Positions 1,398 to 51,902 of a stretch of 52,821 nucleotides of DNA are shown here, in pieces. This stretch comes from Catajapyx aquilonaris. Lineage: Eukaryota. Position 1 is the stretch's first letter. Each line of letters starts with the position of its first letter. The translations under genes were made by a program, and so were the position numbers. Location of the stretch: positions 1 through 52,821 of the forward strand of contig KZ538704.1 in assembly GCA_000934665.2 (NCBI GenBank). Direction: 5' to 3'. The notes beneath the pieces were generated by a model. That model saw only the letters and a program-made list of their open reading frames with translations. It did no database searches and was not told where the DNA came from.

Positions 1398-3500
1398 ATG
1401 TCGTCGGGAGTGGCAGTCAAGGCGGTGAAGGAAGAAGGAGGAGAGCAGCAGGAAGTGAGCACGGAGGAGACCTGGAGACTGCAGATCAAGGAGGAGGACC
1501 CCTCCTGCCTTCAAGACCCATGGAGCTTCATCCAGGGCGTGGTGGAGCAGATCAAGGAGGAAGCCGCAGACGAAGAAGGCCAGTCGGGTGGGAAGGAAGC
1601 TGTGGAAGCCGCGCATGACTCTTTCACCACTCCTACCCATTGGGATGCCAAGGTACAGATTGGGGAAGATGAGCCTGGGTTGCATGGCGGAGGGCATTCC
1701 TTCAGGGGAAAGAGTTTTAATGGCGGCCTCCATGATTGGGTTGGTGTCTCTTCAAGGTTACTCCAAGATATCCCCTTCTTTTTTTAAAAAATGGCATGGT
1801 TACACAGATAACAGATCAAGTTGGGTATTTTATTGAAAGTCATGTACTTATGAGACAAGACCCTTTCTTTTGACCTGCAGGCAATAGTAAGTCACATGCA
1901 AATTAATGACTCAGGTCCACATCCAGGGTGAGAGGAATGATAACTCACGGTTATTGAGGTAGAAAAAGGCTCTCATATTTGAAGTGCATGCATCCAGTAT
2001 ATTATGCAACGGTGCCATTTTTCTTCCCGCCATGGTCCTATGCGCCTTGTGACCATGTACTGTACCTATACATACATTCAACAACAATAATGTTGATGAC
2101 GATAATACAGTAGACTCCAGATATATAAGAGACTTCAAGGGACCACCAAATTCAGGACCCTGAGGTTCCTATTTCCCCTGTCCAAGTATACAGGTTGTGA
2201 TGTGGAAATATGAAGGGACCAGCCCTTCAAGCTTACTCTCTGTCTAAGAGGATTTCTTGTAGCCAAGGCTCTTAGATCCAAAGTCAACTGTAACAAATGT
2301 CATCTTATTTGTTAATATGCCATAATTTTTGCAGTTGAAAGAAGAGTTGGAGCAAGAAGAAGAGAGACCAGATTCATTATTGGAGATGGCACAAGGTTTC
2401 AAGTCTGAGCCTGAAAAGGCCACCAAGGGATCAAAGGAATCAACAGCAAGAGAAAAGGTGGGCGATCCAAATGTTGAATTTGTACACCTAGTGAATTCAA
2501 TCAATGTTAGGCCTATAACACGTCAAGCTAGTGTTTAGGCATTTCATCATAATAATTCATGGCCTGAATGACTTCCACCTAAAACTGCTCGGCTCATGTA
2601 TTAAAATATGATTACTAGTAATAACAAGCAGCTTAGTACCAGTTGTTTAGTAACCAGTAAATGAATTCCTGCTCTAGCCCACTCTCTTCATCTGCATAAT
2701 CATGTTGTGCCAATTGCTTCTGACGCCTGTGTTTCATGTTTGTCCACCTTAACTATCCTTCTGTTAACAAGGCCTTCCTGGGGTGTATTACAGGCCATTG
2801 AGGTGACTAGAAGTTTACTTGAGAGAGAGATGAAGAGGAGGAGAAGCCAGGGGAGGCCACTTTCCCCAAGCGCAACACAGACTCCCCACAGCGTTGAACC
2901 TCAAAAGAATAAGAGGAGGAAGATGGAGGGAATTGCCAAGACCTCTGCATCACAAAAGTCGGGCCTGCCAACGTCTGCATCGACAACTTCTCTACTGGCG
3001 ATGTCTACGCCAGTGGAGGACGCGATGATTAGAACATTGCAGGCTCTTCGTGCGTATGTAAAATGAAAAGCTTCAGTATCGTGTCCCCCCCCAATCACGT
3101 AAAGTAACATACAAACTGGGACGTCATTGCAAGCCATTATTTTGTCCAATTGCCACCTGAAAATTGCCAGACGTGCTGCAATCTTGCATCCAAAACAGAT
3201 GGCAGTAGAGTGTAATTTTTTCTGATGCTGTGAAAGTCATTGTGAATGTGACAATGCTATAAGGAGTCATAATCTGTGTTAACCTATACTGAGTCATCAC
3301 AACAATTTATGTTCCCTTTCAGGCGACTAAGTGAGGAGCCTAAGGAGCCTAAGAAGCCTAAGGAGCCGTCCGACTTCACCAGATTCGCACAGTACGTCGA
3401 GGGCTATTACATGAAATTGTCTGCCAGTACGAAGAAGGCGTTCGAGCAGGCCGTTATCAGATTAGTCTGGGACACCCACAAGGCTGAAGGTGGAAAATAA
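1398..3500 (+). CDS. G1: acidic leader + BESS-like C-terminus (exons 1398-1652, 2335-2457, 2794-3053, 3323-3500)
   Basis: GT-AG introns give one open frame (phases 0,0,2). First two exons are homologous to those of G2 (LKEE..PDSLLEMAQGFK vs LKGE..PDPFMEMIEGFK). Last exon DFTRFAQYVEGYYMKLSASTKKAFEQAVIRLV resembles a BESS motif. Promoter not seen in window. Confidence 0.7.
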
Positions 3501-3634
3501 ATGTCCAGATTCAAAAACTGACTCGCAAGTATTCATTATTTACAGTATACAGTTAAATAGTAACAAAATGCCAAGGTCAAGTCTCACACAAAGGTCTGGA
3601 CCATTTTTTGTTGGTTTCCAACTTCTGCTGACTT

Positions 3635-3985
3635 AGGGAGGCGAAGTGGTGCTGCGGTAACGTACGCGCCCACGGATGTTAAGGTCCCGGGTTCGATCCC
3701 AACCCGGGGACACCCCCTTCATCTCGTGCAGAGTTCATTGGGTCACCTCTGGCTTCGTCTCGGGTGGTATTTCCTACAGACTAAACCACCCGGGGGAGTT
3801 CACTAAAAATGGCCACATAAAGACATTGCACTGCACCTTGCACATCCCCTCCTGTCATCCTGCCCGTGGGCCTGGGCGTTACGTATAAAGGCTCCAATGT
3901 ACACGACAAAAATAAATAAAGGTCCGTGCTACATACCTCTGATGAGGTCAGCACTACCCCGGATTATTTAAAAAAAAGAAAAAAA
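3635..3985 (+). mobile_element. tRNA-derived SINE with poly(A) tail
   Basis: Head GGGAGGCGAAGTGGTG..GGTTCGATCCC, A-rich tail 3970-3987, 15-bp TSD AACTTCTGCTGACTT at 3620-3634 and 3986-4000. Confidence 0.9.
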
Positions 3986-4123
3986 AACTTCTGCTGACTT
4001 TAAAAAGTACATGAATATGAACGATCTAACAGGACAAAGCTCACAAATTAAATTAATAACACAGTTATGTGTACAACTTTGTTAAAAACAACTTCCAAGA
4101 CATGGCCAGGAAAAGTCAACATT

Positions 4124-4756: not shown

Positions 4757-4891
4757 TAGCGGATAACAGGAGTAGCAGTCACAGGGATAGCGGCTACCAG
4801 ACCAACAGCGGTTAATCCCGTCCCTGCGATTGGGCGGTTGTGCGGCGATCGGAATGCGCCCCTTCTTCTTGTGAAGGCCAAGATGGCCGCC
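4757..4891 (+). promoter_or_regulatory. Cluster promoter, G2
   Basis: TAGCGG 4757 and 4788; GGCGATCGGAATGCGCCCC 4844-4862; YY1-type CAAGATGGCCGCC 4879-4891. Confidence 0.7.
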
Positions 4892-5145
4892 GCTGGTCGT
4901 GTCACTGGCTCTCTTGGCGTCTGTTTGGCTGGATCTGCTGCAGACTGGTGGGTTGGACACGGCGGCGGGAGGAAGCGGGGCCTGGGAGAGTCTCACCCTA
5001 CTCATCCTACTCCACAGATTTGCCCTCTTAGGACCCCTGCCAATGCTGCAGCAGCCCAACCGCCCAAGAAAATTGAGCTCTTGGATACTCGTTGCCGTGC
5101 ACCAGCAGGAAAGATTCCTTTTACCTTGACGCATTTGGAGCAGTC

Positions 5146-6849
5146 ATGTCGTCGGTGGTGGAGGAAGAAGAAGAGGAGGAGGAGGACATGGTGGTGGCCA
5201 CGGAGGAGATTTGGATGGCGCCATTGAAGAAGGAGGACTGCCTCGCATACGCCTCGACCCTTATTGCGGAGGACGGTGAACTGAAAAGAGAGGAGGAAGA
5301 GATGGTGGCAACGTCAGTGGTGCAGGGAGATGGAGGCCAGGGCGACCCACTTGCCATCCGATTGGGAAGGACCAATGACGAGGTACAGCACCCAGTTCAC
5401 ATCGCAATATGCCGTACAGCTTGACAGATGTGGTCTGCACATTAGGTGCAGGGTTGTAAACATTACATTGGCATTGAGACCATTTTGAAAGTCCAGTCCA
5501 GGACAACTTTGAACAATGATGATGATGATACCTAAATAAATAATGTGTATTTTTTTTTACATACCGGTATCAGTTGAAAGGAGAGCAGCAGGAGCCAGAA
5601 ACACCTGATCCGTTCATGGAAATGATAGAGGGTTTTAAGGAGCCCAACAAGAAAATTGGAAGCAGACCTGGGGATTCCATGGAAAAGGTGGGTCAACGTG
5701 GTGTTTAAAAAAATGCATTATTTGAAGAGTGCAGTTAGCTGCGACACATTATTTATTATGGGAAGAAATAATTTTCCCCATTAATACTAATTAAAATTTT
5801 TGGCATTTTAACTTGCATAATAATACAGGGTGGTGTAGTATTTTCAGTGTGAATAATATTGTTAATTGGTTTTAAGGTTGATTGATCAAGACCCATTTGC
5901 TGGAAAATTCATTTCCTTGTGCACCTTTCAGGTTGAGGAGGAAAAAGCTGATGGCCGAGTGAAGAAGGGGAAGAAGAGGCGACCTAATGAAGAGAAGCCA
6001 TTTGCTTGCCAACTGTGTGAGAAAAGATTTCTTTTCGCATCTGACATGAGCAAACATATGCTAACCCATTTGGAGCAGTCATTCGAATGCCAGCTGTGCC
6101 AGAAAGTGTTTAGATGCGCATACACTTTGAAGTTGCACACGCGCAGGCACACTGGAGAGAAGCCTTATTCTTGTCGCGTATGCCAGAAGGCGTTTTATCA
6201 GTCGACTTATTTGAAGGAGCACATGATGACTCATGCGGGAGAGAAGCCCTACTCGTGCCGAGTGTGTGAGAAGCGGTTTTTAAGATCGTCGCATCTGAAA
6301 AAGCACATGAAGACTCACAGAGAAGAGGAGCCACTAGTGTGCCACTTGTGCCAGGGCAAGTTTATTTTGGCAAGTGACTTGGAGAAGCACATGAGGAGTC
6401 ACGCCACAGAGGATCCATTTGCATGCAGAGTGTTTCAGGAAAGTTTAAGTGAATTAGTCTTGAAAGTGCACAGGAGTGGGCAAGCGGGAGAAAAGCCTTT
6501 TGTTTGTCAAATATGTGAGAAGCCATTCAGCCGTGCGTCTCACTTGAAGAAACACCTGGTGATTCATTCAGAGAAGCAGTTTGTCTGTCAGGTATGCCAG
6601 GAGAGGTTCAGCTGGCCGTATGCTTTGAGAAGGCACATGGTTATCCACACGGGCGAGGAACCATACTCTTGTCCAGTGTGTCAGAAGAAGTCTCGCCGTG
6701 CCTCTGACATGAAGAAGCACATGCGGACTCATACTGGAGAGAAGCCTTTTGCCTGCCAGGTATGTCAGCGATCGTTCAGTCAGTCGTCTAACATGAAGAA
6801 ACACATGAAGATGCATGAGGGAGAGGATCCAATTGAAAACCAAGGGTAG
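5146..6849 (+). CDS. G2: acidic leader + C2H2 zinc-finger protein (9 intact + 1 degenerate finger); exons 5146-5382, 5574-5687, 5932-6849
   Basis: All introns phase 0; leader ends GDPLAIRLGRTNDE|gtacag; fingers with TGEKP linkers. Confidence 0.85.
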
Positions 6850-7711: not shown

Positions 7712-7853
7712 TAGCGGAATTTACCAGTAGCGACGAATGTTGTAACAGTTAATGGAGATATAGCTTTTAAGGCCTTCCCTGGCTGGAATCGGTTTGGGAT
7801 TGTCAGTTGCCGTGCGTCGGAACGCACCCCCGCCCCGAGCTCAAAATGGCCAC
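7712..7853 (+). promoter_or_regulatory. Cluster promoter, G3
   Basis: TAGCGG 7712; GCGTCGGAACGCACCC 7814-7829; CAAAATGGCC 7842-7851. Confidence 0.7.
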
Positions 7854-8110
7854 CGACCATTTCCCCATCATAGTTTGAGCGTGGTTTGAGGGAAAAGGGA
7901 AGGGCTCGGCCTCTGGTTTCGCCCCTGGTCGGATTGCGCCCTGGGGCGGCCCTTGGGGTGCCGGACGGACGGGCAGAGGGGCAGGAGGAAGCCGCTGCCG
8001 CCGGAAAAGGGGTGAAGGTCGCGCTCCATTGTTAGTGCGGCATATATAGACTCATCTTTTATTATTTTCATGTCGTTTCTCTTTATAATAGTCGGCGCAG
8101 CAGCAGGGCC

Positions 8111-10668
8111 ATGATGTTGACGCCGGCCATCAAGAAGGAGGTGGAGGACGAGGACGACTGGATTCCCCTGGAGGACTTGTGGAGGAGGCGTGGTCCTCCC
8201 GTGGTGAAGCAGGAGGAGCCGGAGGAGGTCCAAGGGGAAGGAGCGGCCACCCAAGATGCCGATGCGGATCATGACCCACTGGCCACTGGCACGGAGGAGG
8301 AGGAGGAGACCTCTCAGGTACGCCAGCTGGCATGCTGCTGGAATAGAGCAAACAAATAGCCAGCGGTGGCACAATCAAGAGAAGATGTAACACCAAAGAA
8401 AGCATCATTTAGGCCTAGTACTCGTGTCATAAAAGTATACTGTTTAGCTACCCATATTCAATGGTGGGAACAGCTAGCTGTAAGGTTAGCTTCGCTAACT
8501 GCTAACAAAAAACATTGACTTTGCTACATCGCTAATGCTAAACAGCTAGAGAGATCAACGGAAGCTGACGCTAATATTACAATAAAACCTTAATATAACG
8601 CTCTACAAGGGACTGCCCGAAAGTAGCGTTATAACCTTATGGAAATGATCAAGGGGCGTTACAAGCAGGAACGCGTTATATGCAAGGAGCGTTATGTCGA
8701 GGTTTCACTGTATATGAATTTAGCCTTTTGTTGTTCTTTTTTTGCTCTATTACCCTTTTTTTTAAAAAAAAAAAACCTAGAGTGGTACAGCCTAGAGAGC
8801 ACTGCTACGCGTATGCCTTATTTAGTTATTTTACTGTTCCGTACAAAATGTAATAAAAAAATCCAAAAAGAAAAAATTCTAGCAAAAGCAAAAGCAAAAA
8901 AGGTCTAATTGCAGCAAAAGTATTATATTGGAAAATGTAGTTCACTTTGGCTGCCTCTGACTCCACTGTTTCGAAGTGATGGCAGTTGGCCTTCAAAATG
9001 CTGCTCAGAAAATAACAGACAGCGTGGGAGGAACATGTATGAATTGTGTTTAGCAGACTTAGATTTAGCGGAACTAAACTTAGCGGAAGTTAATTGGTAC
9101 ACTAACGCTTTACAAAGTTAGCGAAAACGCTAATCAGCTAACCAAAACGTTAGCTTCCCTAATTAGCTATGAGCTGATCCCTGCCCGCCACTGCCCACGT
9201 TGACACTAATCAGACAGGTTGCAAGAGCAGATTTAATTTGGTTTTTTTCAGAATTCAATCTTTATCTGCAAACAAAGGTCATTTGTGTGTGGCTTCTAAA
9301 ATGATGGTTTCATATCGACAAATGTTACAAACTTCTGGTGACAAAAAGGTGCAAAAGACAGTTTACGGTGCAATGTTAACACCTCACAAAAAAATATCTG
9401 GAAAAAAAAAAAATGCAGTTGACCTTAGCATTTTGATTGTGGCATGGGGGACTATCCAAACCCTTTAAGACAATATATTTTAACACAAACTAAATGAATT
9501 TTTTTCTTCCAGTATTATTTTAATTATTGAAATCAACTCTGCCATTGGGGGGCGATTCCCTCTGCTGCTTAATTAATGCGTGGCCTGACCAGTCACCAGA
9601 AGATCCATTGTAATGGTCATACGAGACGGCTAGGTGTACACACTAGTAGTCACTGCCCACCCCATTATTCTGGGTTTATGCCTTGAAGTCATGAATGAAT
9701 GAACATTCAGTTTAAAGTGATAATTGAAAGTTGCACTGACCTTTTGAAATTATATTTTATCTTGAATGGCAGACAGATGGCACCCAATTTTTAGAGGCCC
9801 TTATTGTTGGCTGAAATCGATGGTGAAAGGTTAGGCATTTGACCTCAGGAAATGTGATGTTCTAATACATCGGGGCTTTCATCTGCAAGTAATTCACAAT
9901 GCATTGATATTAAAGTGATGAAAAGTGATGCGAAAGATGAGCATACATTTTTCCTCCCATTGTGTGATATGTTGATGATCCATTTTCCAGTTGTTATTAT
10001 GGTTGTTATTGTAATGAATGCAATGGAATTGTTTTTGTAAGGGTGCGATGGGACTTGACACCTTTCCCTCTGCTTAAAAGTCAGTGACGTAATGCGTATT
10101 TCAGGTACCACAAGAGAAGGCTGGTGATGTAAATACTGGGCAAGGAGGGCAGGTGCAGACTGACACGAAGACACGTGAGGAAGAAAAGCCACTTGGTTGC
10201 TATTTGTGCCAGGAAAGATTTGATGTGGCTCATGATTACGAAGTGCATGTGTTGACTCACAAGTCGTTTGCCTGCCACTTGTGTCAGATGAAGTTTGCTC
10301 GGACGCTCGAGTTGAGAAAACACTTGCGGAAACACAAGCCACACGTGTGCCACGTTTGCCAGAAGAAGATTATCCCGGCGTCTAGGTTGGCTAAGCATCT
10401 GCTGAGCCACAAGTCATATTCATGCCAAATTTGCCGCAATAAGTTCTTTCACGAGAGCGACATGAAAAAGCACATGTTAACTACTCATGATGTATTTCCT
10501 TGTCATGTTTGTGACCAGGTGTTTCCTCAGCAGCCTCTGTTAAGAACCCACATGCTGACTCACAAACCATTTACTTGCCACATTTGCCAGATGAAGTTCT
10601 CTCAGGAACCTTATTTGAAAAAGCACTTGTTGACTGGAAAGTGTGCCACAGTGCACCAGATGAAGTAG
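8111..10668 (+). CDS. G3: acidic leader + 6 C2H2/C2HC fingers (exons 8111-8317, 10105-10668)
   Basis: Leader AIKKEVED..DHDPLATG..SQ|gtacgc, phase 0; acceptor tttcag at 10104 is in frame with the finger ORF. Confidence 0.8.
8459..9193. mobile_element. hAT-type non-autonomous element (MITE)
   Basis: Termini CAATGGTGGGAA / TGCCCGCCACTG (imperfect TIR), subterminal GCTAAC/TTAGC repeats, 8-bp TSD CCCATATT (8451-8458) vs CCCACGTT (9194-9201). Confidence 0.7.
8580..8710. mobile_element. Tc1/mariner-pogo type MITE nested in the hAT element
   Basis: TIRs CAATAAAACCTTAATATAACG / CGTTATGTCGAGGTTTCACTG flanked by TA on both sides. Confidence 0.7.
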
Positions 10669-11915
10669 GCATCTAAATTAAATAGACACCTCTTGATAAA
10701 TGTGGGAAAGAAATGCTCGTGTCAATTCACAAAGGAGTGAGACCATTATTGTACGAACGCTGGTACATTATTGTACTCGTAGTTGCCAGCCATGACCAAT
10801 AGTGTATGTCGGATTATCTTGTTTGAAAGAACCTACGGCATGTCATATGGGGAAGAAACCAATTATTATACGTGCTTACCTGGTTGATGGGACGTCTTTG
10901 CAGAAATCATCTTTAAATAATTCAGTCACGATTAATCATAATTGATTTAACTGACATGTTTGAGAATATTTAGGCGTACAGACAGCAAATGCGGGCACAG
11001 TATGATCTGAACACACATGACATAGTTGCTGGATGTGCAGCCATTTGCTTGAAATTATTGCAATGATAATAATTTTAGTAGGCAAGTGATGAGGAGAGAT
11101 GCAGCATGTTTCACCTTGTGTGACGTTCCATTTCAAAAATGGGTAGTGAAACACAAGATATTCTCTTTTGTGCGACGTTCAATTTATCATCCTTTCTGAC
11201 GTCTGGATTCACCTCGTAATATGTAAAGTAACCCAACTGATGCTGTAATAAATGACAGTTTGGACGTTCATTCATGCAATACTCATTGCTTACTATTGGT
11301 TTCAGACAACATCAGCTACTCTTATTACGAGTATCATTTCACACTGTTAGTTTTAAGGTGAAGTAGGGCAAGTTCATATTTGGAAGATGAATTTTCAATA
11401 TTTCCTGCCAGAAAAGTATTGATTTGTGAATGCATTTTTAAATGTGTGTCAACGAAACATTTATTCTTTTTTTCAGAAATTACATACATTTATCACATTG
11501 GTCATGTACGCTATATTATGAAATTATTAATGGCAGAGTGTGTTACATTTTGTTGACAATAGCGACCCACACAACAGTAGGGCTTGATAAGTCCTTCATG
11601 CCAAAATTGAGTTTAATGGGCAGGGTAATTTTTTTCGAGGAGCAAAATAATTTGCAAGTAAAATTCCTTCCACCTATTGTAGTTGAAAATTGTGACATTT
11701 TAAAATGGACAAATCCATCGATTTTTAGGTGAAAATATTTCAGAGGAGCTGCAATAAAAGTCGTGTAAAAGTCATCTAGGTGTGAAACCAGTGAATGCTT
11801 CTCGCATTGCCGTTTCATTTTCTTGGGTAATGTTACAGTTGTGTTGTTTTTTTTAAATCTACGTATAGCTATGTTTCATTTCAATGAATACTCACCGATC
11901 TAATACATCTTTCAG

Positions 11916-12362
11916 GTGGTGCGAGGGAACATTGGCAATGAAAATGCGGGAGTGCTGCTGGATGCTCACGGCAGGACTCCAGAGAAAGAGAAAATACTAA
12001 GCTGCCCTTTGTGCCAGGAACGCTTCAGCCTGGTGCACGATTACGACACTCACATGCTGACCCACAGAGGAGAAAGGCCATTCCCCTGCAGCATATGCTC
12101 AAAAAAGTTTGTCCGTGCAAGTAATCTGAAAAGGCACATGGCCACTCATCCCGAAAAGACACTCTTTGCTTGTCCAGCATGCCTGGAAACATTTCACACC
12201 GCATATAAATTAAACAGACACCTGTTGACCAACGACTGTCACAAAGAGGTGGGACAGTTCATGTGCCAAGTTTGTCGTAAGCCGACCGAGATGACCGACT
12301 TCCCCTTGATGGGGAATACGCAAGAGAAGTCGTACGTTTGCCAGGGTTGCCGAAAGAAATGA
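11916..12362 (+). CDS. G3 alternative terminal exon: about 3 zinc fingers plus partial fingers
   Basis: Phase-0 acceptor ctttcag at 11915; first finger CPLCQERFSLVHDYDTHMLTH paralogous to CYLCQERFDVAHDYEVHVLTH; no promoter or leader between 10668 and 11916; AATAAA near 12484. Confidence 0.65.
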   Translation: MVRGNIGNENAGVLLDAHGRTPEKEKILSCPLCQERFSLVHDYDTHMLTHRGERPFPCSICSKKFVRASNLKRHMATHPEKTLFACPACLETFHTAYKLNRHLLTNDCHKEVGQFMCQVCRKPTEMTDFPLMGNTQEKSYVCQGCRKK

Positions 12363-12582
12363 CGTTCAGTCACGCAGTTTGAATCACCACATCGCAGCAT
12401 GACTCTCAATGTGGATTGACTTGTGTATTGATTTGTAATAATATATCTGTCAGTGTTTAGTTTAGAAATAATCCAGCCAATTAAATAAATATCTGTTTTT
12501 GAGATAATTCAGCTGGTAGCTAACAGCTAAATGGCGATCGCTGTTTCTGCCAAGAACCGGTGACAGTAACCGCTACTGCTGC

Positions 12583-12662
12583 TAGCGGCTTTTAGAAGCC
12601 TCAGGCTGTGAGCAGATCCACGGCAGGCGTCGGAATGCATCCCAAAAATTCCAAAATGGCGG
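12583..12662 (+). promoter_or_regulatory. Cluster promoter, G4
   Basis: TAGCGG 12583; GGCGTCGGAATGCATCCC 12626-12643; CAAAATGGCGG 12652-12662. Confidence 0.7.
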
Positions 12663-12766
12663 AGTCGCTTTCGTTCGATCGGATCAGGTCCAAGCTTCTC
12701 TCGGCGTGAGTTGAACCGTTTCCTTCCCTTTGCCATGGCTGTTCACGAGCTGTTTTGTTTCGCAGG

Positions 12767-14510
12767 ATGTTGCCCTTGGCTTCGGAGATCAAGAAGGAGG
12801 AGGAGGAGGAGGAGGACGGGGAATTAGCTGCGGGGGATGATGAGGTGCAGCTGCCTGATGATGATGATGACCTTCCTGCTGTCAAGGTGGAGTCTGCTGA
12901 AGAAAGGTCTGCCGGATGGTGTCATTTTTAAGGTGTCGAGATCAAAGTGTCACTTTTCCCAAAGAAAGGAACACTGCCCGTTTTCAATGGAAGTGACTGC
13001 ATCTCTTAGGACAGGGTCGTACCTGTATCTGAAAGTGTTTTCACGCCTTTTCCCAGGGCTATGTCATTGGTGTTAAAGATCAAGCAGGAAGAGGAGGAGG
13101 AGGAGGACAAATTAGGAGAGATAAAAGAAGAGCCAGAGATAGACGTACCGGTAGATCAAATGGAGGACGGCGAGGAAATGGAAGAAGACGGCGAAGGAAT
13201 GGTGACGACAGAGGATTTGTGGAGTTTGGTCATGAAGGAGGAACCTCGTTTGGCGGAACCAACTGCCGTGGAAGTACCGGATGAGGTGGCATCGGATGGG
13301 GCACCAAATGTGGAAAGCGTGGCTTCCAGCAATGTAGGCACCCCACTGGGAGCCACATCCAGAAGGACTTCTGCTGGAGGACAGGTACGCTGTCATCGGA
13401 AATGTGCGCTTGATGTTCACCTCCGCTTTCTATTAGCATTACAGTTGGAGTGAGATGTCCGACATGCACCTTGCCTATGGCGAAGCACAGGGGCGTGGTA
13501 GAGAAGCCCAGAGGGTGTACCAGGAACTATTTCCAAAGAGGAAATTGCCAAATGGCTCCACCTTTGCAGCAATTGACCAGCGGCTGAGGGAATACGGTTG
13601 TCTCTACAAACAAGCACGTGAGACTGGACGACCCGCCACTGTGGCAACTGCAAGCATGAAGAAGAGAGTGTTGGACTGCTTCAGAGAGGGGTCTGCCTCT
13701 AGCCTTCGCAGCGTGGCCCGTGCCCTGGGCACCAGTACCAGCACTGTTAGGAAGATTGTGAATGAGCACAGGCAGCAGTTCCACATGTACGCAGAGAGGG
13801 TGCACATACTGGGTCCGGATGACTTCCCTTTGCGGGTGGAGTTTGCCGAGTGGTTTCTGAAGCAACATGCAGCGGATCCCCAGTTTCCGTCCCTTGTGCT
13901 CTTTACTGATGAAGCATCGTTTGATCTGGAGGACGCATGGAACTCCAGAAACAGCAGCGTCTGGGAGAAAGAGAACCGTCTCGCCGTACGACCCAAGAGC
14001 CAGCAAGATAGAGTTTCGGTAAACGTGTGGGTAGGAATTCTAGGAGACCTCTTGCTGGGTCCACTTCTGCTCCCGCAAGACCTAGATGCCAGGTCGTACA
14101 GGGTGTTTCTGGGCCACTCGTTGCCAGAGCTGCTGGAGTGTGTTCCGCTGGACATGCGCATGAAAATGTGGTTCCAGCATGACGGGGTGTCTGCTCATTT
14201 TGGGTCTGGTGTTGGTAAGTGCCTGAAGAGGACCTTTTGCGACAGGAGGATCAGCCAGGGCGGCCCTGTGTCCTGGCCACCACGGTCACCGGACCTCACT
14301 CCCGTCGACTTTTTTCTGTGGAGTTACATCAAGACTCTAGTGTACGAGACCCCAGTGGATTCGGAGCAGATTCTTCTCGCCCGAATCATGGCAGCATGTG
14401 AAGTGATACGGGCAACAGACTGCATATTTCAGCAAGTGCGCGAGTCCATGTTGCGTCGCTGCAAGGCCTGCGTCCAGGCCAACGGGCGCAACTTTGGCCA
14501 CTTCCTTTAA
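12767..14510 (+). CDS. G4: two acidic exons fused to a DD41D (rosa-type) Tc1/mariner transposase with DUF4817-type HTH; exons 12767-12906, 13057-13384, 13437-14510
   Basis: Phase-2 then phase-0 introns are in frame. Exon 3 starts HYSWSEMSDMHLAYGEAQG; motifs FTDEASF, FQHDG, WPPRSPDLTPVDFFLW with 41 residues between the 2nd and 3rd D. No TIRs seen. Confidence 0.85.
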
Positions 14511-38354: not shown

Positions 38355-38486
38355 ATTATTTGGCTGTTAATACCAGTAATTAATAGGGTGAATTAACATA
38401 TGTTTGGGACCCTAATAAATGCTACATATAATTAATTATTCAATGCGTTCCTTGCTGGTCTAGTTATCGCAGGAGCAGTGGGGGAG

Positions 38487-38579: not shown

Positions 38580-38823
38580 ACAATTTCTGAGCCAAAAAAA
38601 AAAGACTGGGCTGAGTTTCTTCGCTCTTTTTCGGCTGGATCTGACTTCGCTCACGTTTGGGCTGCAGGGAACGGATGCTGCGGACTTCACGGAGGGTGAG
38701 TGCGCAGGGGGAAGGAGGCTGAAGGGACTCCGATTGTGGTTATGGCGGATATGGCAGTGGGTGACCGACAGAGGCTAGGCCTACCTGGTAAATATTTGAC
38801 CTCATGTTTTTACATGCAGGACC

Positions 38824-40661
38824 ATGTCGCTTGTGCTGAAAATCAAGGAGGAGCTGGAGGAAGACGATGGGGATTATACCGCAGAAGAGACGGGAAGGCT
38901 GGCGTCGTCACGTGTACAGGACGACACTGCGTTTGTAGAAGTCATGCTTCATGACGTCAAGGAGGAAATGGCAGAGGAAGCAGAAGTGACTTACTCTGAT
39001 GAGGAGGACTTGGCACTCACTGAAGACACGCTTTGTGAGGTCAAAGTCGAGGAAGAGGAGGTGGTGGAAACGACGTCTGAAGTGGCTCCAGATGCGGATG
39101 ACCCATTGACCAATGAGGTACGTTACTATAAGCAGCTATAAGGAACTACAAAAAGATTGATTTGATGAAAACATTTTTAAAAATCCCTAATGCCCCGTAA
39201 TAACTTCAGAATGCTAATGTACACCCATTCTGATCAGTACTGTGCATGTGATTGCTTGGCCGTTACATTTTTTCCGCAAGGGGGTGTCAAATAAAATGCT
39301 TCTGGGAAATCTCTGATCTGCAGTCTAAGACTGGGCGCAAACAGGAAATTCGGGGGAGCGTTGTTGCCCGAGCAACTGGCCGGAACGAAAATGGCACGTG
39401 CACCCAGAAGAGTCGCACGCAAGTTTCCAGGTTTCTTGCACATAAGAAACCTGGACAAAATCTCGGGGCACATTACAATGCACCAAGAAGAGATTGGACC
39501 ATTCAGGCGGAAAGAAAATTAGTGGAATTCTACCGATGTAAGTCGAATATTTGGACTGAAATGGATAGGGCGTCTTTGCACAGGCTCTTGCGTAATCAGA
39601 CGTTGTCATTTCAGCCCATGAGTTGTTGTGGAACCCAATGGAGGAAGACTACCATAAACGACATGTGCGGGAGTATTTATTGAGGGAGCTGGCGGGACTC
39701 CTCCGGGAAGGTGCTGGGGCAGTCAGAGTTGGAGGTAATGCACTGACGGTTGCATGAGGGTGAATGAGGGTAATTATGCAAGCGCTTGGACCATGTAATT
39801 CAGTAATATGCAATTAAATGGATTTTTGGTTTTTTTTAAAAGTGGCTGATATCAAATCGAAGTTCAGGAACTTGCGAACCACGTTTCTAAGAGAGAGAAA
39901 GAAAGAGGCTGCATCACCATCTGGAAGTGCGTACAAGTCAAGGTGGCACCATTTTGGATCCCTCACTTTTCTCAACGATGTTATCAAGCTTGATTCGAAC
40001 ACGGATTCCATGGGAAGCCCACAGATTTGTAGTGTCAAGGTAAGCCACTCATTTCGGCATTTCTGTTAACTGAACAATGGCTGCAAGGCAAAACAATAAT
40101 TGGACACAGTGTATTGACCAGACTCCAAGAAATATTTACCCTGATTGATTACTTTATCTGCATACAATAATCAATCATCAACCATACTGACTGTGAGAGG
40201 CAACCAATTAATTTTATGTACTGTCACTTGCTTTTTCACAGATCATTGACGAGGATTCAAGGGTACCTCCACCCACTCTAGATCCAGCCAACACCAGCCC
40301 ATCTCCTGCTTCATCATGCGCTGCTGCTTCACCATCATCATCATCCGCTGTGCCTTCCCCTCTCCCAACCTTCCCAAACCCATCCCCCAACCCGTCTCCC
40401 AAGCTCCAAAAGAAGAATGCAAAACTCAAGATCGCTGCTGCGAACATTGAGGAGAAGAAAGTGGAGCTCCTGGCCAATGCAGCTGATGCGATGACAGCAG
40501 TGTTGGAAAGGCTGCAAGGCAACAGAGACCATGTAGAGCTGCACTGCCGCGCTCTGGCAGAACGAATTAAGAAACTGAGTCCAATAAATCAAGAGCTGGC
40601 ATTGTTAGACATGCACCAGGTAGTAATTAAATATGTAAAGCAGGAGGCTGGACATAATTGA
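38824..40661 (+). CDS. G13 isoform A: acidic leader + MADF domain + BESS-like tail; exons 38824-39117, 39324-39537, 39615-39734, 39843-40039, 40242-40661
   Basis: Open frame across phases 0,1,1,0: WTIQAERKLVEFYRSHELLWNPMEEDYH..DIKSKFRNLRTTFLRERKK..YKSRWHHFGSLTFL (MADF pattern); tail HCRALAERIKKLSPINQELALLDMHQVVIKY; AATAAA near 40819. Confidence 0.8.
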
Positions 40662-41428: not shown

Positions 41429-42670
41429 GGAGCACATGGCGGAGCTGTTGGCAGTGATGCGATGGGAATCCAGGAGAGCCAGAAGACACGCATTAGGGAG
41501 AAGTCATTTGCTTGTCAAGTTTGTCACAAGAAGTTTAGTCAACTATATCGTTTAAATCAGCACTTGAAGACCCATACAGGAGAGAGTCCCGCTTGTCCGG
41601 TTTGTAAGAAGAGCTTTAGGCAGTCATCTCAGCTGAAGAAGCATATGATGACTCACTCAGGAGAGAAACCCTTTTCTTGTCAAGTTTGTCAGAAAAGGTT
41701 TAGTCGGCCACATCATTTGAAGAAGCATATGAAGACTCACACAGGGGAAAAGCCCTTTTCTTGCCAAGTATGTGAGAAGAAGTTTGCAGAAGCATCGAAT
41801 ATGAAGAGACATATGATCAGTCACTCCGGGGAGAAGACATTTGGTTGCCAAGTGTGCCAGAAGAAGTTTGCAGATTCATTGTATTTGAAAAATCACATGA
41901 TGATCCACACAGAAGACAGGCCATTTCCATGTCAAATTTGTCAGAAGAAGTGCAGGCAATCATGTGATTTGAAGAAACATATGATGACTCACACAGGAGA
42001 GAAGCCGTTTTCATGTGATGTGTGTCAGAAAAGGTTTAGGAAGTCGTCACATTTGAAAATTCACATGAAAAGTCACACAGGGGAGAAGACATTTGCGTGC
42101 CAAGTGTGCCAGAAGACCTTTGCGGAATCGACTTACTTGAAGAAACACATGATGACTCATACAGAAGAAAAGCCATTTTCCTGCCAAAAATGTCAGAGGA
42201 AGTTTAGTCAGCCGTACCATTTGAAGAAACACATGAAGTCTCACACGGAAAATAAGCCATTTTCATGCCTAGTGTGTGAGAGGAAGTTCCGCGAATCATC
42301 AAACATGAAGCAACACATGAAAACTCACACAGGGGAGAAGGCATATGCTTGCCAAATGTGCGAGAAGAAGTTTGCAGAGTCATCTTATCTGAAGAAACAC
42401 ATGATAACTCACACGGGTGAGAAATCGTTTACCTGCGAAGTGTGTCAGTTGAAATGCAGGCAGTCGTCCGACTTGAAAAAGCACATGAAGACTCATACGG
42501 GCGAGAAGCCATTTCCATGCCAGGTGTGCCAGAAGACGTTTGCAGAATCATCCAGTTTGAAAAAGCACATGATGATTCATACAGGAGAAAAGCCGTGGGC
42601 TTGTCCAGTTTGTCAAAAGAACTTTAGGCATTCAACCCACTTGAAGAAGCATATGATGACCCACAAATGA
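41429..42670 (+). CDS. G13 isoform B terminal exon: 14 C2H2 fingers
   Basis: Phase-0 acceptor ttttgcag at 41428; start GAHGGAVGSDAMGIQE is homologous to G12 exon start GLHGAAAGRNVTGVQE; nearest upstream leader is 38824-39117. Confidence 0.85.
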   Translation, partial: GAHGGAVGSDAMGIQESQKTRIREKSFACQVCHKKFSQLYRLNQHLKTHTGESPACPVCKKSFRQSSQLKKHMMTHSGEKPFSCQVCQKRFSRPHHLKKHMKTHTGEKPFSCQVCEKKFAEASNMKRHMISHSGEKTFGCQVCQKKFADSLYLKNHMMIHTEDRPFPCQICQKKCRQSCDLKKHMMTHTGEKPFSCDVCQKRFRKSSHLKIHMKSHTGEKTFACQVCQKTFAESTYLKKHMMTHTEEKPFSCQKCQRKFSQPYHLKKHMKSHTENKPFSCLVCERKFRESSNMKQHMKTHTGEKAYACQMCEKKFAESSYLKKHMITHTGEKSFTCEVCQLKCRQSSDLKKHMKTHTGEKPFPCQVCQKTFAESSSLKKHMMIHTGEKPWACPVCQKNFRHSTHLKKHMMTHK

Positions 42671-42742: not shown

Positions 42743-44155
42743 ATGTCACTCAAAGAGGAGGAAGGTGAAGAACACATCAGCCAAGAGGAGCTGTCGAATG
42801 AGGAAACTCCATTCTTGCAAAGATAGCCCTGCACTTGACATGCTGCTAGAGGTCAAAGGGCGGGAATAAAGGACAGGGCCAGAGATATGTGATGTCATGG
42901 CTGCAGATGAGGACCTAGGGAAAGCAGTGAGAAGACCCTGTGTGACACTTATTATGATGGCTTCATTGACGATGACCTTTCTGATGAGACCAAGGAAGAA
43001 GAAGCGGAGATGGTGGCTAATGTGTCAGAAGTGGTCACAGATGACCCATTAGCGGCTAGAGAGGTACGAAACCACTGTGTGCATGGCTGGGTTTGGTATG
43101 ATCCTGGTATTTATATCTGTAGCATTGAGAGCAGATTTACAATAGAGTCATGGTTAACTTGTCAGTAATTTGGTCTTAGCAGAGAGACAGTTTGTGATCA
43201 ATTTTGGTGGATGCAGATATCAGGCCTGATTTTGTGAAACACTTGGATGTGCACTTATCATCATTTTGTTAACCAAATGTATTTTTCAGGAAGCACAGCA
43301 GGTGAGCCAAGGGAAGAGCCGCAGAAGAAGAAAGACACGCGAGGGAGCAAAACCAAATGAGTGCAACATATACCAGACAGTGTCATCTGACATTAATCAT
43401 CACGTGATGATGAAGTGCATGGGAGAGAAGCCATTTGCGAGGCAAGTTTGTCGGGAAAAATTGACAAAATCGTCAGAGTTGAAAACAGAAATGGTGAATC
43501 GCAGAGGAGAGAATAAGCCACATGTGCGCATGATGTGCCGAAAGGAGTTCTCTCGGGCGTATGACTTGAACGTACACGCAAGGTTTCACACAGGAGAGAA
43601 ACAATTTGCGTGCATATTGTGCCGGGAAAAGTTTTACACGAAATCTCACATGAACAGACACACATGATTGTTCATTCAAGAGAATCTCCATATGCATGCA
43701 AATATTGCAACAAAAAGTTTCCTCGGGAACAGGAAATGAAAAATCACACAATGATTCACACTGGTGAAAAGCCATTTGCTTTGCAAAATATGCCACAAAC
43801 AGTTTATTTTGGCATCTGGGCTGATATACCATACTAGGATTCACACTGGAGGGAAGCAGTACGCATGTGACACGTGCCAGAAACAGTTCAGCAGATCATA
43901 CACCAACTGCAATCACACAAGAGGATTCACATCGGAGAGAATAATAATAAGCCGCACACATGTAAGCTGTGCCAAAAAGTGTTTCGTTACAAGTGTGGCT
44001 TGAACAGAGACACCTCGTAAGCCATTCAGGTGTGAATAAGCCATACGCATGCAAAGCGTGCCACAAAAAAATTCACCCGACCAACTGACGCGAAAAGGCA
44101 CGTGCTGATACGCCATGCAGAATGGAAATCATCGGAGTGCACAAGTGGTGAGAAG
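42743..44155 (+). pseudogene. G14: leader + zinc-finger pseudogene
   Basis: Leader MSLKEEE..DDPLAARE|gtacga (to 43063) has frameshifts and stops; finger exon from 43290 has lost Cys/His and has stops; no promoter. Confidence 0.8.
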
Positions 44156-44506: not shown

Positions 44507-44518
44507 AATGAAAGAAAG

Positions 44519-49914: not shown

Positions 49915-51629
49915 TCATGTATGAATTCTCATGTGCGTTTTCAAATTATATGAATCACGGAACTTTTTCTGGCACACCTCACAAAGATATGGTTTCTCGC
50001 CGGTGTGAATTCGCATGTGAGTTTTCAAATTATATGAATAACCAAATGTTTTCTGGCACACCTCGCAAATAAACGGTTTGATTCCTGTGTGAATTCGCAT
50101 GTGGGTTTTCAAACTATATGCATAACTAAATGTTTTCTGGCACACCTCACAAGTAAACGGGTTTTCTCCCGTATGAATGCGCATGTGACATCGGACATCT
50201 CTTGAAGCACGAAATTTTTCCTGACATACCTCACAAGTGAATGGTCTTTCTCCTGTATGAATGCGCATGTGCTTTTTCAATTCACTTCGCTCTATAAATT
50301 CTTTCTGACACACCTCACAAGTAAATGCTTTTGCATGAATTCGATTGTGAGCCTTCAACTCAGTTGAATCAGAAAACTTTATCTGGCAAATATGGCAACA
50401 AAACCTTTTACTGTGAATCATCATGTGAAATTTCAAATCAAGCTGGGTACTGAAGAATTTCTGGCATATTCGGCACTCAAACGGATTTCTTCCATCGTAT
50501 ATTCCACTGCTCCTATCCTCTTGGATCCCAGCGTCTCCTACTCCGCTTTCAGTTTTAACTTGCACAACCTGGAACGTGAATTACAGTACATCAATTCTGA
50601 TACTGTGATGCTTTCCACCTTCTTTTGCCTCACAGAGCTCACAGATCCACAGATTGTACCATCAAAGATTTCAATGCCACCCTCTACATGTTGGAGAAAT
50701 AGAAATTATGACCTCTGCTGGATTGAGGTCACAAAGGATAAATTTAAGCACATTTTAACATACGACGATCCATAATCATCCTTGGCATTATTTATTGTCG
50801 CCTGAATGTATCCAAATCTATACTGTAACCTCCATGAGAAAAGTGGATGCAAGTTAATCAGGTTGCCTTACAGAGAAGTAGTACACGGCGATGCATTCAC
50901 CGCATGCAGCCTGCTTCACGGAGGATGGCTGAGCGGGCGGAAACTCCGAGTGGTGGGATTGGCTCAAGTTCATTGCGTTGGACTTTGCGGGTGGCTGAGC
51001 GGGTGGTTGGAGCACCTGCTCAGCCATCCGACTAACTTGTGAAGCAGGCTTGTTTTTATGACGTCTGGCAGTTGCACATAGACTGATATGAAACAACCAC
51101 ATATCCATTACAGTATACAGAAAGGGATGAACTTTATCAATAAAATATGCTTCATGAATATTTAAGTACAGCATATGTAGATTACAATGACTCGCGCTAA
51201 CCCATGACTACCTAAAAGTTTTTAGGTGTTGGACAATGCTGGGCAGGTAAGAGTTGCGATGTCGTCAAAAGACACGCATGTAGGGTTGCTTGATTTGGAT
51301 TGATGATTTTGTGTGGCTTTCAATGTAAAATTATGCTGCAATTTCAGCAGTGTGCTTACACCACTGCATCCAGAACCTCCCGCTAAAGGGTCATCTTTGT
51401 CCTCCTTGGATGTGTCCACCGCCACCATCTCCTCCTCCTCCTCCTCTCCTTCCTCCTTCTTGACCTCGAGGAGAGTGTCTTCCATGCGCGCAGTAGAATC
51501 ATTGTCCAGCCATGGTGGTGGTGCTTCCTCCTCCTCCTTCACCCTTAGCCTCCAACTCTCCTCGTCCACTGTGATGTCCTCCTCCTCCTCCGGCTCTTCC
51601 TCCTTCTTTATCTTCAGGATGAAAGACAT
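49915..51629 (-). CDS. G15: acidic leader + 7 C2H2 fingers; exons 51629-51360, 50568-49915
   Basis: MSFILKIKKEEE..KDDPLAGGSGCSG|gtaagc, phase 0; finger array ends at H-T-stop-E-K-P-F with decayed fingers beyond. Confidence 0.85.
50908..51050. mobile_element. Short MITE in G15 intron
   Basis: AGCCTGCTTCAC..GGATGGCTGAGC / GCTCAGCCATCC..GTGAAGCAGGCT inverted ends. Confidence 0.6.
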
Positions 51630-51765
51630 GGTGCGAGGAACAGTCCCGACGATAATTCCAGGAGGCGACCAAACCCATTCGAGGGAACGAGACGGGTTGA
51701 AACGAGTTCTGCTGGACGGACACTCTTCTTCCAGATCGAAACAGAATAAATTATTGTGTTGCTCA

Positions 51766-51902
51766 GGCGGCCATCTTTTTCTTTTCTTTTTTTCTTTTTA
51801 TTTATGCAAATGAGAGGGTGCGTTCCTGTCGCCACACCACCAGAGTGCTTGGAAGGACGGACTTATGCGCTATTATTCACCTGCTCTGAATAATCGCCGC
51901 TA
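51766..51902 (-). promoter_or_regulatory. Cluster promoter, G15 (minus strand)
   Basis: Reverse strand: TAGCGG 51902-51897, TAGCGCATAAG near 51872, GGCGACAGGAACGCACCC 51833-51816, AAGATGGCCGCC 51777-51766, same order as other copies. Confidence 0.75.

What the first reader, a model, noticed from the sequence alone, without database searches (positions are those of the whole stretch)
1398..51902. A reusable promoter + acidic leader cassette that has repeatedly captured transposon proteins inside a zinc-finger cluster
Seen: about 15 units share one promoter, a UTR exon and an acidic leader exon whose donor is phase 0 in every intact copy. The 3' partner varies: C2H2 arrays (G2,3,5,6,7,12,13B,15), a DD41D transposase (G4), Merlin/ISXO2 derivatives (G8-10), Harbinger-type MADF/BESS (G1, G13A) and possibly DUF4806 (G11). 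That is three, perhaps four, unrelated DNA-transposon superfamilies in 50 kb. Established: vertebrate KRAB exons are spliced to both zinc fingers and transposase DNA-binding domains; insect ZAD and BTB (mod(mdg4), lola) modules pair with variable DNA-binding exons. No KRAB, ZAD, SCAN or BTB motif is visible here. Inference: an independent invertebrate 'effector exon + exchangeable DNA-binding module' system in which the leader intron acts as a splice trap, turning inserted transposons into factors that may target their own family.
Basis: partly seen in the sequence, partly recalled or inferred. Interest (0 to 1): 0.9.

Follow-up and report, generated by a model that had tools for sequence, protein, structure and literature searches.

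The report
Acidic leader exon capturing transposase genes
A zinc-finger gene cluster in an unidentified animal genome reuses one promoter and one acidic first coding exon, and transcript contigs show that exon spliced in frame onto two unrelated transposase genes, much like the KRAB-transposase fusions known from vertebrates.

Summary
The observation largely holds. The window has 13 copies of one promoter and 13 complete plus 4 partial copies of an acidic leader exon. Every leader donor is in phase 0. Twelve C2H2 exons begin in phase 0 behind a shared acceptor.

Contigs of the one public run that holds the locus join the leader to a full-length DD41D Tc1/mariner transposase (G4, 52-nt intron). 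They also join it to an IS1595/Merlin-type gene (G9) and remove that gene's internal introns. The spliced reading frames are open: G4 465 aa, G9 426 aa, G10 445 aa.

The three Merlin-type paralogues arose by tandem duplication of whole units. They show dN/dS of 0.28-0.36.

A MADF gene with introns (G13A) is in frame with the leader by sequence only. MADF/BESS in G1 is not supported. DUF4806 in G11 is only a weak lead.

The leader matches no Pfam family and no protein in two large libraries. It is predicted to be disordered and is packed with SUMO-consensus motifs (33 observed, 4.2 expected).

The mechanism, transposase capture by splicing, is already known from tetrapods. This is a new variant with a new effector exon. 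Repressor function and targeting of cognate transposons are untested.

The parts
26309..26544 (+). Reference copy of the shared promoter plus non-coding first exon (G9). The core box is at 26387-26399 and the donor follows 26537.
   Evidence: nhmmer E 3.3e-67; alignment A1; box count; donor AAG|GTGAGT
26640..26879 (+). G9 leader exon coding part, 80 codons, phase-0 donor
   Evidence: joint 26879|27261 in a run X1 contig
27261..28453 (+). G9 IS1595/Merlin-type module. Exons 27261-27504, 27579-27899, 27978-28453. The fusion CDS is 426 aa.
   Evidence: Joints for introns 1 and 2; the third intron's joint fits G9 or G10 equally; open frame; PF12762 E 6.4e-6; Atlas 30 of 30
23315..25613 (+). G8 unit: promoter, leader whose ATG is changed (donor after 23993), Merlin-type exons 24410-24671, 24743-25063, 25138-25613
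   Evidence: intron joint 25062>25137
28512..30948 (+). G10 unit: promoter, leader 28855-29100, Merlin-type exons 29709-30003, 30074-30394, 30473-30948. The fusion CDS is 445 aa.
   Evidence: No unambiguous joint for this unit.
12566..12886 (+). G4 promoter and a degenerate upstream leader-like exon (G4a)
13061..13384 (+). G4 leader exon, 108 codons, phase-0 donor
   Evidence: joint
13437..14510 (+). G4 DD41D Tc1/mariner transposase exon, 357 codons. The fusion CDS is 465 aa.
   Evidence: Joint skipping 52 nt with GT..AG ends; an 886-nt contig at 13524-14409 with 0 differences; homologues and alignment; no flanking inverted repeats
24366..24440 (+). Repeat T, G8 copy. It contains the acceptor used by the leader. 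Possible relic left terminal repeat of the Merlin-type element.
27220..27291 (+). Repeat T, G9 copy, containing the acceptor at 27261
31712..31782 (-). Inverted copy of repeat T, 36 nt after the G11 leader donor. Possible relic right terminal repeat.
30969..31676 (+). G11 promoter and leader (coding 31299-31676)
33045..34645 (+). Candidate G11 partner. It is multi-exon, its first exon has a phase-0-compatible acceptor two codons before an ATG, and its family is unresolved.
   Evidence: No Pfam hit and no transcript evidence.
38483..39117 (+). G13 promoter and leader (coding 38824-39117)
39324..40661 (+). G13A MADF gene. Exons 39324-39537, 39615-39710, 39843-40039, 40242-40661. With the leader the frame is 406 aa.
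   Evidence: MADF 31.8 bits. Model read by eye. All four introns are GT..AG with no internal stop (the end corrected to 40661). No transcript evidence.
41429..42670 (+). G13B zinc-finger exon. It has no promoter or leader of its own, so it is a second possible 3' partner of the G13 leader (511 aa).
   Evidence: no promoter or leader hit between 40661 and 41417
1398..1652 (+). G1 leader. No + strand promoter copy was detected and the partner is unresolved.
4784..6849 (+). G2: promoter, leader 5146-5382, ZNF exon 5932-6849
7742..12362 (+). G3: promoter, leader 8111-8317, two ZNF exons (from about 10105 and from 11916)
14931..17015 (+). G5: promoter, leader 15275-15520, basic middle exon 15666-15863, ZNF exon 16389-17015
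   Evidence: both joints
17167..21087 (+). G6 (leader 17515-17697, ZNF to 18616) and G6b (leader fragment with donor after 18774, middle exon from 19492, ZNF exons from 19940 and 20431)
   Evidence: joint 18772>19490
21248..22845 (+). G7: promoter, UTR exon, leader 21604-22005, ZNF exon 22294-22845
   Evidence: joints 21519>21600 (GC..AG) and 22004>22293
36786..38354 (+). G12: promoter, leader 37091-37468, ZNF exon 37842-38354
42911..43667 (+). G14 remnant: leader fragment (donor after 43063) and a weak ZNF exon from 43290
49915..51905 (-). G15: promoter, leader 51629-51360, ZNF exon 50568-49915

Best explanation
This is a lineage-specific zinc-finger gene cluster built like KRAB-ZNF or FiNZ-ZNF clusters. 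Each unit has a promoter, a non-coding exon, one leader exon with a phase-0 donor, and a 3' exon that begins in phase 0 and carries the DNA-binding part.

Because the leader donor is phase 0, a gene that lands in the leader intron is read in frame if it offers an acceptor in the matching frame just before its start codon. That has happened at least twice with transposase genes. One is a full-length DD41D Tc1/mariner transposase (G4). The other is an IS1595/Merlin-type gene, whose unit was then copied in tandem, promoter and leader included, to give G8, G9 and G10. It has probably also happened with a MADF gene (G13A) and with a gene of unknown family (G11).

Shown here: the shared anatomy, the in-frame splicing of G4 and G9 in transcript-like contigs, the open reading frames, and purifying selection on the Merlin-type paralogues.

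Inferred: the leader is a disordered acidic module whose working parts are SUMO-consensus lysines. On that view the fusions act as DNA-binding regulators, most likely repressors, and not as transposases.
For: Anatomy: 13 promoters; 13 complete and 4 partial leaders, all with phase-0 donors; 12 ZNF exons in phase 0.

Splicing: 10 of the 12 joints in run X1 have GT..AG or GC..AG ends at predicted sites. They include 13384|13437 (G4 leader to transposase), 26879|27261 (G9 leader to Merlin-type exon), two Merlin-type introns, and control joints in G5, G6b and G7.

Open fusion frames: 465, 426 and 445 aa.

Acceptor at the native N-terminus: the six residues read before G4's first ATG align with the homologues' own N-terminal residues.

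G4 has no flanking inverted repeats, and the window holds no other copy of G4 or of the Merlin-type gene beyond G8-G10.

Merlin-type paralogues: dN/dS 0.28-0.36 over 310 ungapped codons, Fisher p 5e-7 to 4e-10. There are 0 gap columns in the exons, while the introns carry indels. Each copy abuts the next promoter, so they spread by segmental duplication.

Leader: 0 Pfam families; no structure predicted, mean pLDDT 61.8, pTM 0.16; 33 [VILMF]Kx[ED] motifs in 13 leaders against 4.2 +/- 1.9 in shuffles, with 0 of 2000 shuffles reaching 33, and 33 of the 65 lysines sit in the motif.

Against: Only one run holds the locus, and its kind is not on record. Each joint rests on one contig at depth 2.9-10.4. 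That the run is RNA-derived is my inference from the canonical intron ends.

G4 keeps all three catalytic residues and could still be an active transposase. It has also changed 16 of the 85 columns that are invariant in 8 homologues, which fits either a shift in function or early decay.

The G8 leader has lost its ATG.

Exon 4 and intron 3 of the Merlin-type copies are 91-97% and 84-97% alike, against 68-88% in exons 2-3. That suggests gene conversion, which blurs dN/dS. The three pairwise comparisons are not independent.

G10, G11 and G13A have no transcript evidence.

No relative of the leader was found anywhere, so there is no comparative evidence for its function. The SUMO-motif count includes related paralogues.

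Copy numbers of these transposons in the rest of the genome are unknown.
Confidence: 0.72

Rival explanations
1. The fusions are accidental. Transposons landed in the leader introns and are spliced in by chance, giving chimeric transcripts with no function that will decay.
For: Depth at the joints is low and only one run holds the locus. The G8 leader has lost its start codon. G14 and G4a show that units in this cluster do decay. G4 has changed 16 of 85 otherwise invariant columns. The G4 catalytic triad is intact, as in a young insertion.
Against: All 4 transposase-derived reading frames are open. dN/dS is 0.28-0.36 with no indel in 310 codons, although dS reaches 0.42-0.93 in the N-terminal part. 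Whole units were kept through two rounds of tandem duplication. G4 lacks terminal repeats, and only 52 nt separate it from the leader donor.
Confidence: 0.15
2. The host promoter and leader merely drive a transposase that still works. G4, or the ancestor of G8-G10, remains a mobile-element gene using a host promoter, and the leader is a neutral N-terminal extension.
For: The G4 DDD triad and full length are retained. A 63-75 nt inverted repeat pair (T at 24366 and 27220, inverted at 31712) could be relic Merlin-type ends. Merlin terminal repeats of 24-462 bp are described in PMC8101967 (passages).
Against: No inverted repeats flank G4. The T pair encloses three whole units and host promoters, not one element. 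In all three Merlin-type copies the residue that I recall as the first catalytic aspartate reads F or V. That motif comes from memory and was not tested against a reference alignment.
Confidence: 0.08
3. The joints are artefacts of contig assembly or of mapping among similar paralogues.
For: 2 of the 12 joints have non-canonical ends and lie in zinc-finger repeats (18552>20968 and 19237>19327). The joint 27898>30472 cannot be assigned, because the first 40 nt of exon 4 are identical in G9 and G10.
Against: 10 of 12 joints have canonical ends exactly at sites predicted from sequence before the reads were laid. The G4 joint lies in unique sequence. The G9 leader joint has 239 letters on its shorter side.
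Confidence: 0.04

Closest known systems
Host-transposase fusion genes formed by transposase capture, for example the KRAB-mariner fusion KRABINER (Cosby et al., bioRxiv 10.1101/2020.05.07.082677; abstract and passages read)
   Same: [quoted passage not shown] A zinc-finger 3' exon is available as the other partner (G13). A Tc1/mariner-superfamily transposase is among the captured genes.
   Different: The 5' exon is not KRAB and matches no known domain. The whole transposase is retained, including its catalytic triad (G4). One capture was amplified in tandem three times. Several captures lie within 30 kb. The paper surveyed tetrapods only.
FiNZ-ZNF genes of cyprinid fish and KRAB-ZNF genes (Wells et al., Genome Res 2023, PMC10547256; passages read)
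   Same: [quoted passage not shown] The genes form large tandem families.
   Different: FiNZ is described as 28 residues and unique to cyprinids, while this leader has 61-134 residues. No FiNZ model was available for comparison. The passages read mention no transposase partners for FiNZ.
mod(mdg4) and lola of Drosophila (recalled, no call)
   Same: Common 5' exons are joined to alternative 3' exons that carry different DNA-binding modules, as G13 may do with its MADF and zinc-finger exons.
   Different: Those loci use a BTB domain, and mod(mdg4) uses trans-splicing. No BTB is present here. Alternative use of the G13 leader is not shown by transcripts.
F-box genes that captured a Tc1/mariner HTH domain in Caenorhabditis (Almeida et al., MBE 2025, PMC12062965; abstract and outline read)
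   Same: A multicopy host gene family in an invertebrate captured a Tc1/mariner-derived domain, and the captured genes show purifying selection.
   Different: [quoted passage not shown] Here whole transposases are captured by the 5' module of a transcription-factor family.

Membership tests
Host-transposase fusion gene (transposase capture) | A transposase-derived coding sequence | tested here: met
   G4: 756 homologues, best 49% identity over 100% of the length, carrying PF16087, PF01498 or PF13358. G8-G10: PF12762 at E 6e-6 to 3e-5 and 30 of 30 Atlas hits.
Host-transposase fusion gene (transposase capture) | Host exon and transposase joined in frame in one transcript | tested here: met
   Joints 13384|13437 and 26879|27261; open frames of 465 and 426 aa. 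One run of unrecorded kind, one contig per joint.
Host-transposase fusion gene (transposase capture) | [quoted passage not shown] | tested here: met
   G4: the acceptor is 6 codons before the first ATG, and those residues align with the homologues' N-termini. G9: the acceptor lies within repeat T.
Host-transposase fusion gene (transposase capture) | Immobilised copy, with terminal repeats lost | tested here: inconclusive
   G4: none of the 8 inverted pairs flanks the ORF closely. Merlin-type units: a T / inverted-T pair remains but encloses three units. Target-site duplications could not be read.
Host-transposase fusion gene (transposase capture) | Purifying selection on the captured part | tested here: met
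   dN/dS 0.28-0.36 for the G8, G9 and G10 pairs. Not testable for G4, because no close relative is available.
Host-transposase fusion gene (transposase capture) | The host part is a regulatory domain | not testable with these tools
   Indirect evidence only: SUMO-consensus enrichment and predicted disorder.
KRAB, SCAN, ZAD or BTB zinc-finger families | The named N-terminal domain is present | tested here: not met
   0 Pfam families at E<=0.01 for every leader ORF among the 122 ORFs scanned.
FiNZ-ZNF | The 28-residue FiNZ sequence | not testable with these tools
   No FiNZ model or sequence is held. Only the gene layout and acidic composition can be compared.
Tc1/mariner, DD41D group | DDD triad with 41 residues between the second and third D | tested here: met
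   Invariant D158, D249 and D291 in alignment A3. Spacing counted by hand on the translation.
Tc1/mariner, DD41D group | Terminal inverted repeats at the element ends | tested here: not met
Merlin / IS1595 superfamily | DDE_Tnp_IS1595 domain | tested here: inconclusive
   24.5-26.7 bits against a cut-off of 27, measured on exon 4 alone because an intron splits the domain. Atlas 30 of 30 at score 0.95.
Merlin / IS1595 superfamily | Intact DDE triad | tested here: inconclusive
   The first position reads F, F and V in the three copies, judged against a recalled motif. No reference alignment could be fetched (one search found none).
Merlin / IS1595 superfamily | Terminal repeats beginning GG, with 8-9 bp target duplication (PMC8101967) | tested here: inconclusive
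   The T copies in G8 and G9 begin at a GG. Flanks are too diverged to read a duplication.
MADF-BESS proteins | MADF domain | tested here: met
   G13A: PF10545 at E 1.8e-7, 31.8 bits (cut-off 22), plus E 0.006 on the preceding exon. G1: not met, with 0 families.
MADF-BESS proteins | BESS motif | tested here: not met
   No PF02944 hit at E<=0.5 in G13A or G1. Any resemblance is by eye only.
PIF/Harbinger-derived Myb-like gene | Descent from a Harbinger second ORF | not tested
   No search was run.
DUF4806 proteins | PF16064 domain | tested here: not met
   No hit at E<=0.5 on the G11 ORFs. The Atlas gives a lead only: rank 14, score 0.87, family on 16% of members.

The most novel reading that the evidence does not exclude
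A new effector exon has arisen in this lineage: disordered, acidic and built around SUMO-acceptor lysines. With its own promoter it forms a portable 5' cassette. The host uses the cassette both for ordinary zinc-finger repressors and to convert the DNA-binding proteins of invading DNA transposons (Tc1/mariner, Merlin-type, perhaps others) into sequence-specific repressors of those same transposon families. Successful fusions are then amplified in tandem. This would be a KRAB-independent and possibly SUMO-dependent counterpart of the KRAB-transposase system outside tetrapods.
Probability: 0.3. Interest if true: 0.8.

Novelty: new variant of a known kind. Interest (0 to 1): 0.62.

Why it matters
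Transposase capture by host regulatory exons has been documented systematically only in tetrapods, mostly with KRAB. Here one 50-kb locus holds at least two independent captures by a different and undescribed effector exon, one of them amplified threefold and under purifying selection. Zinc-finger paralogues with the same promoter and leader sit alongside as built-in controls.

That makes three open questions directly testable in one small system:
- Is capture a general route to new transcription factors outside vertebrates?
- What minimal sequence makes a portable repressor or effector module?
- Do such fusions police the transposon family they came from?

Tried and rejected
Whole genome: none is held, so the leader's 3' partners could not be listed genome-wide and transposon copies could not be counted.

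Earlier notes of this scan: nothing by place or by sequence.

Leader relatives: the word-indexed search among longer proteins found none. The profile of 13 leaders against 1.84 billion representatives gave 0 hits at E<=0.001. Both are weak negatives for a short, low-complexity query, and this species appears to be absent from those libraries.

Taxon: a search with the B9-domain exon found nothing, so the organism is unidentified and 'invertebrate' is unverified.

Sequencing runs: no RNA holder is listed. The single holder X1 has no recorded kind.

Parts without contig cover (25740-26406, 28408-29074, 31076-31742) carry no weight.

Reference IS1595 proteins to check the catalytic residues: tblastn of exon 4 against plasmids found nothing.

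G1 as MADF/BESS, BESS in G13A and DUF4806 in G11 had no Pfam support.

The target-site duplication around repeat T could not be decided by eye.

Leader structure: no secondary structure and low confidence, so no fold search was run.

A literature search for the DD41D group failed on term format and was not repeated, so no paper on that group was read.

A literature search for a recalled promoter-factor motif gave four unrelated papers. The idea that the core box is a YY1-type site rests on memory only.

I considered the idea that the promoter-leader cassette sits inside a Merlin-type element and is carried by it. I set it aside because the same cassette heads 12 zinc-finger exons and the T pair encloses three units. 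A fourth unit (G11) that lost its Merlin-type body by deletion explains the layout more simply, although that too is an inference.

Full report
WHAT IS THERE

The window is animal-type genomic DNA (GC 0.39-0.51). It is dominated by 84-nt periodic zinc-finger repeats. A Pfam scan of all 122 stop-to-stop ORFs of 95 aa or more found C2H2 arrays in 12 of them. It also found one 357-aa ORF with a DUF4817 helix-turn-helix, three ORFs with a near-threshold DDE_Tnp_IS1595 match, and two ordinary genes, DcpS and a B9-domain gene, at 44.3-48.2 kb. Most of the cluster is on the + strand.

THE SHARED 5' CASSETTE

I used the unit at 26300-26900 as the reference. Iterated nhmmer found 13 copies of its promoter and non-coding exon, with E from 7.4e-8 to 3.3e-67. 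Aligned, they share four boxes (A1). The core box CAARATGGCSRMC occurs 13 times against 0.03 expected.

A jackhmmer search with the 80-residue leader peptide, followed by inspection of the hits, gave 13 leader exons with an ATG and 4 fragments without one. Every leader ends at a donor in phase 0, mostly GAG|GTACG.

All 12 zinc-finger exons start in phase 0 behind a conserved acceptor that translates as CxFQ. Nine passed my pyrimidine filter. The G5 site did not, but a contig joint confirms it.

THE 3' PARTNERS THAT ARE NOT ZINC FINGERS

G4 (DD41D transposase).
- The ORF at 13437-14507 aligns end to end with free-standing transposases of 357-358 aa that carry PF16087, PF01498 or PF13358. There were 756 hits and the best was 49% identical.
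- It keeps the three catalytic aspartates, with 41 residues between the second and third by my count.
- It keeps 69 of the 85 columns that are invariant in eight homologues.
- No inverted repeats flank it.
- Only 52 nt separate it from the leader donor. The acceptor at 13437 sits within the homologues' own N-terminal residues.

G8, G9 and G10 (IS1595/Merlin-type).
- Three tandem copies of an IS1595/Merlin-type gene each contain three short introns.
- Exon 4 gave 30 of 30 Atlas hits to PF12762.

G13A (MADF).
- This is a four-exon gene whose MADF domain is split by introns (PF10545, 31.8 bits).
- With the leader it reads as an open 406-aa frame with GT..AG introns.
- It is followed by a zinc-finger exon (41429) that has no promoter or leader of its own. 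The G13 leader may therefore have two alternative partners.

G11.
- Its leader is followed by a multi-exon gene of unknown family.
- The first exon of that gene has a phase-0-compatible acceptor two codons before an ATG.
- Pfam finds nothing. The Atlas points to eukaryotic hypothetical proteins, with DUF4806 only as a weak lead.

G1.
- The downstream ORFs have no Pfam match and no similarity to G13A.

TRANSCRIPT EVIDENCE

Only one public run holds the locus. It is X1: kind not recorded, 32 million letters, kept as contigs. I laid it on 12400-32399 and it gave 12 joints. Ten have GT..AG or GC..AG ends and fall exactly on sites I had predicted from sequence:
- the G4 leader to the transposase exon (skips 52 nt);
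- the G9 leader to the first Merlin-type exon (skips 381 nt, 239 letters on the shorter side);
- Merlin-type introns in G8 and G9;
- control joints in the zinc-finger units G5, G6b and G7.

One further joint (27898>30472) fits G9 or G10 equally well, because their exon 4 starts are identical for 40 nt. Two joints in zinc-finger repeats are non-canonical and probably artefacts.

I infer that X1 is RNA-derived. Each joint rests on a single contig at low depth. With these junctions the fusion reading frames are open: G4 465 aa, G9 426 aa, G10 445 aa. G13A, the G11 partner and G13B lay outside the 20 kb that could be laid.

SELECTION AND ORIGIN OF THE MERLIN-TYPE UNITS

Each Merlin-type copy ends within about 40 nt of the next promoter. 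The duplicated unit was therefore promoter + leader + intron + captured gene. That is host segmental duplication, not transposition.

Over 310 ungapped codons, dN/dS is 0.33-0.34 (0.28-0.36 when the two halves are taken separately), with Fisher p from 5e-7 to 4e-10. The exons have no gap columns, while the 70-78-nt introns have indels. Exon 4 and intron 3 are much more alike than the 5' half, which suggests gene conversion and calls for caution.

A repeat of about 70 nt (T) contains the acceptor used in G8 and G9. It recurs once, inverted, 36 nt after the G11 leader donor, and nowhere else in the window. The simplest reading is that these are relic ends of the original element, and that G11 is a fourth unit that lost the Merlin-type body. 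This is a lead, not a result. The described Merlin hallmarks (terminal GG, 8-9 bp duplications; PMC8101967) could not be settled here.

In all three copies the residue that I recall as the first catalytic aspartate reads F or V. I could not fetch a reference alignment to confirm this.

WHAT THE LEADER MAY BE

The leader matches no Pfam family, no longer protein in the 5.8-billion-cluster library and no representative among 1.84 billion proteins. AlphaFold predicts no secondary structure (pLDDT 61.8, pTM 0.16).

Its 13 copies are only 29% identical per column. Even so, they hold 33 [VILMF]Kx[ED] motifs, which is the SUMO-acceptor consensus as I recall it, usually followed by acidic residues. 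Composition-preserving shuffles give 4.2 +/- 1.9, and 0 of 2000 reach 33. Half of all lysines (33 of 65) lie in the motif. The copies are related, so this is not a clean probability, but the motifs are what has survived the divergence.

My inference is a disordered, SUMO-modifiable acidic module that recruits silencing machinery. SUMO-dependent heterochromatin formation on transposons is known in Drosophila (bioRxiv 10.1101/533091; title and start of abstract seen).

COMPARISON WITH WHAT IS KNOWN

The gene layout parallels KRAB-ZNF and FiNZ-ZNF genes: a short acidic N-terminal sequence in one exon upstream of one zinc-finger exon (PMC10547256, passages).

The capture mechanism matches that described for tetrapods. 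There were at least 94 captures, mostly by alternative splicing and often to KRAB. [quoted passage not shown]

Transposon-domain capture by a multicopy invertebrate family is also known for F-box genes in Caenorhabditis (PMC12062965, abstract).

Four things differ here: the effector exon is undescribed, a whole and apparently intact DD41D transposase is retained, one fusion was amplified in tandem, and several captures are concentrated in one cluster.

VERDICT

Two transposon superfamilies are demonstrated, not three or four.

Effector function, self-targeting and the taxon remain open. I rate this a new variant of a known kind, with moderately high interest.

Noticed in passing
window 1068-1080 and 1220-1232 (- strand): Two copies of the promoter core box point leftwards, just upstream of the G1 leader, which itself has no + strand promoter copy. 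No leader was found to their left, only an AAT microsatellite and a tRNA-like SINE fragment. This may be a bidirectional or decayed promoter.
   Followed up: partly
window 44321-45917 and 47432-48206 (+): Two ordinary host genes, DcpS (PF05652, PF11969) and a B9-domain ciliary gene (PF07162), interrupt the cluster between G14 and G15.
   Followed up: no
window 15666-15863 and 19492-about 19690 (+): G5 and G6b share an extra basic middle exon between the leader and the zinc-finger exon, so some units have three coding exons. Both of its G5 junctions are seen in contigs.
   Followed up: partly
window 21520-21600: The intron between the UTR exon and the leader of G7 has GC..AG ends in the contig joint.
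   Followed up: no
window 26181-26258: An isolated fragment of the 3' part of a leader exon (about 82% identical to the others) lies between the G8 Merlin-type gene and the G9 promoter.
   Followed up: no
window 26903-27075: The G9 leader intron holds a palindromic stretch with two inverted arms around an ACGTCA core. It looks like a small inserted element. Seen by eye only.
   Followed up: no
window 31828-32180: A block of short GAATGTTC / GAACGTTC-type repeats, direct and inverted, lies just after the inverted T repeat in the G11 intron. Contigs of run X1 differ here from the window at four places.
   Followed up: no
window 35117-35129: A run of 13 N (assembly gap) lies inside the G11-G12 interval, so the anatomy there may be incomplete.
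   Followed up: no
window 27453-27650 (G9), with equivalents in G8 and G10: The Merlin-type proteins carry a cysteine-rich CxCxxC...C stretch before the DDE domain, with a weak treble-clef hit (PF14311, E 0.01). The Merlin paper states that Merlin elements lack the IS1595 zinc-finger domain. These genes may therefore belong to a different branch of the IS1595 superfamily.
   Followed up: no
window 52274-52459 (- strand): A further zinc-finger fragment on the - strand lies beyond the G15 promoter, so the cluster probably continues past the window end.
   Followed up: no
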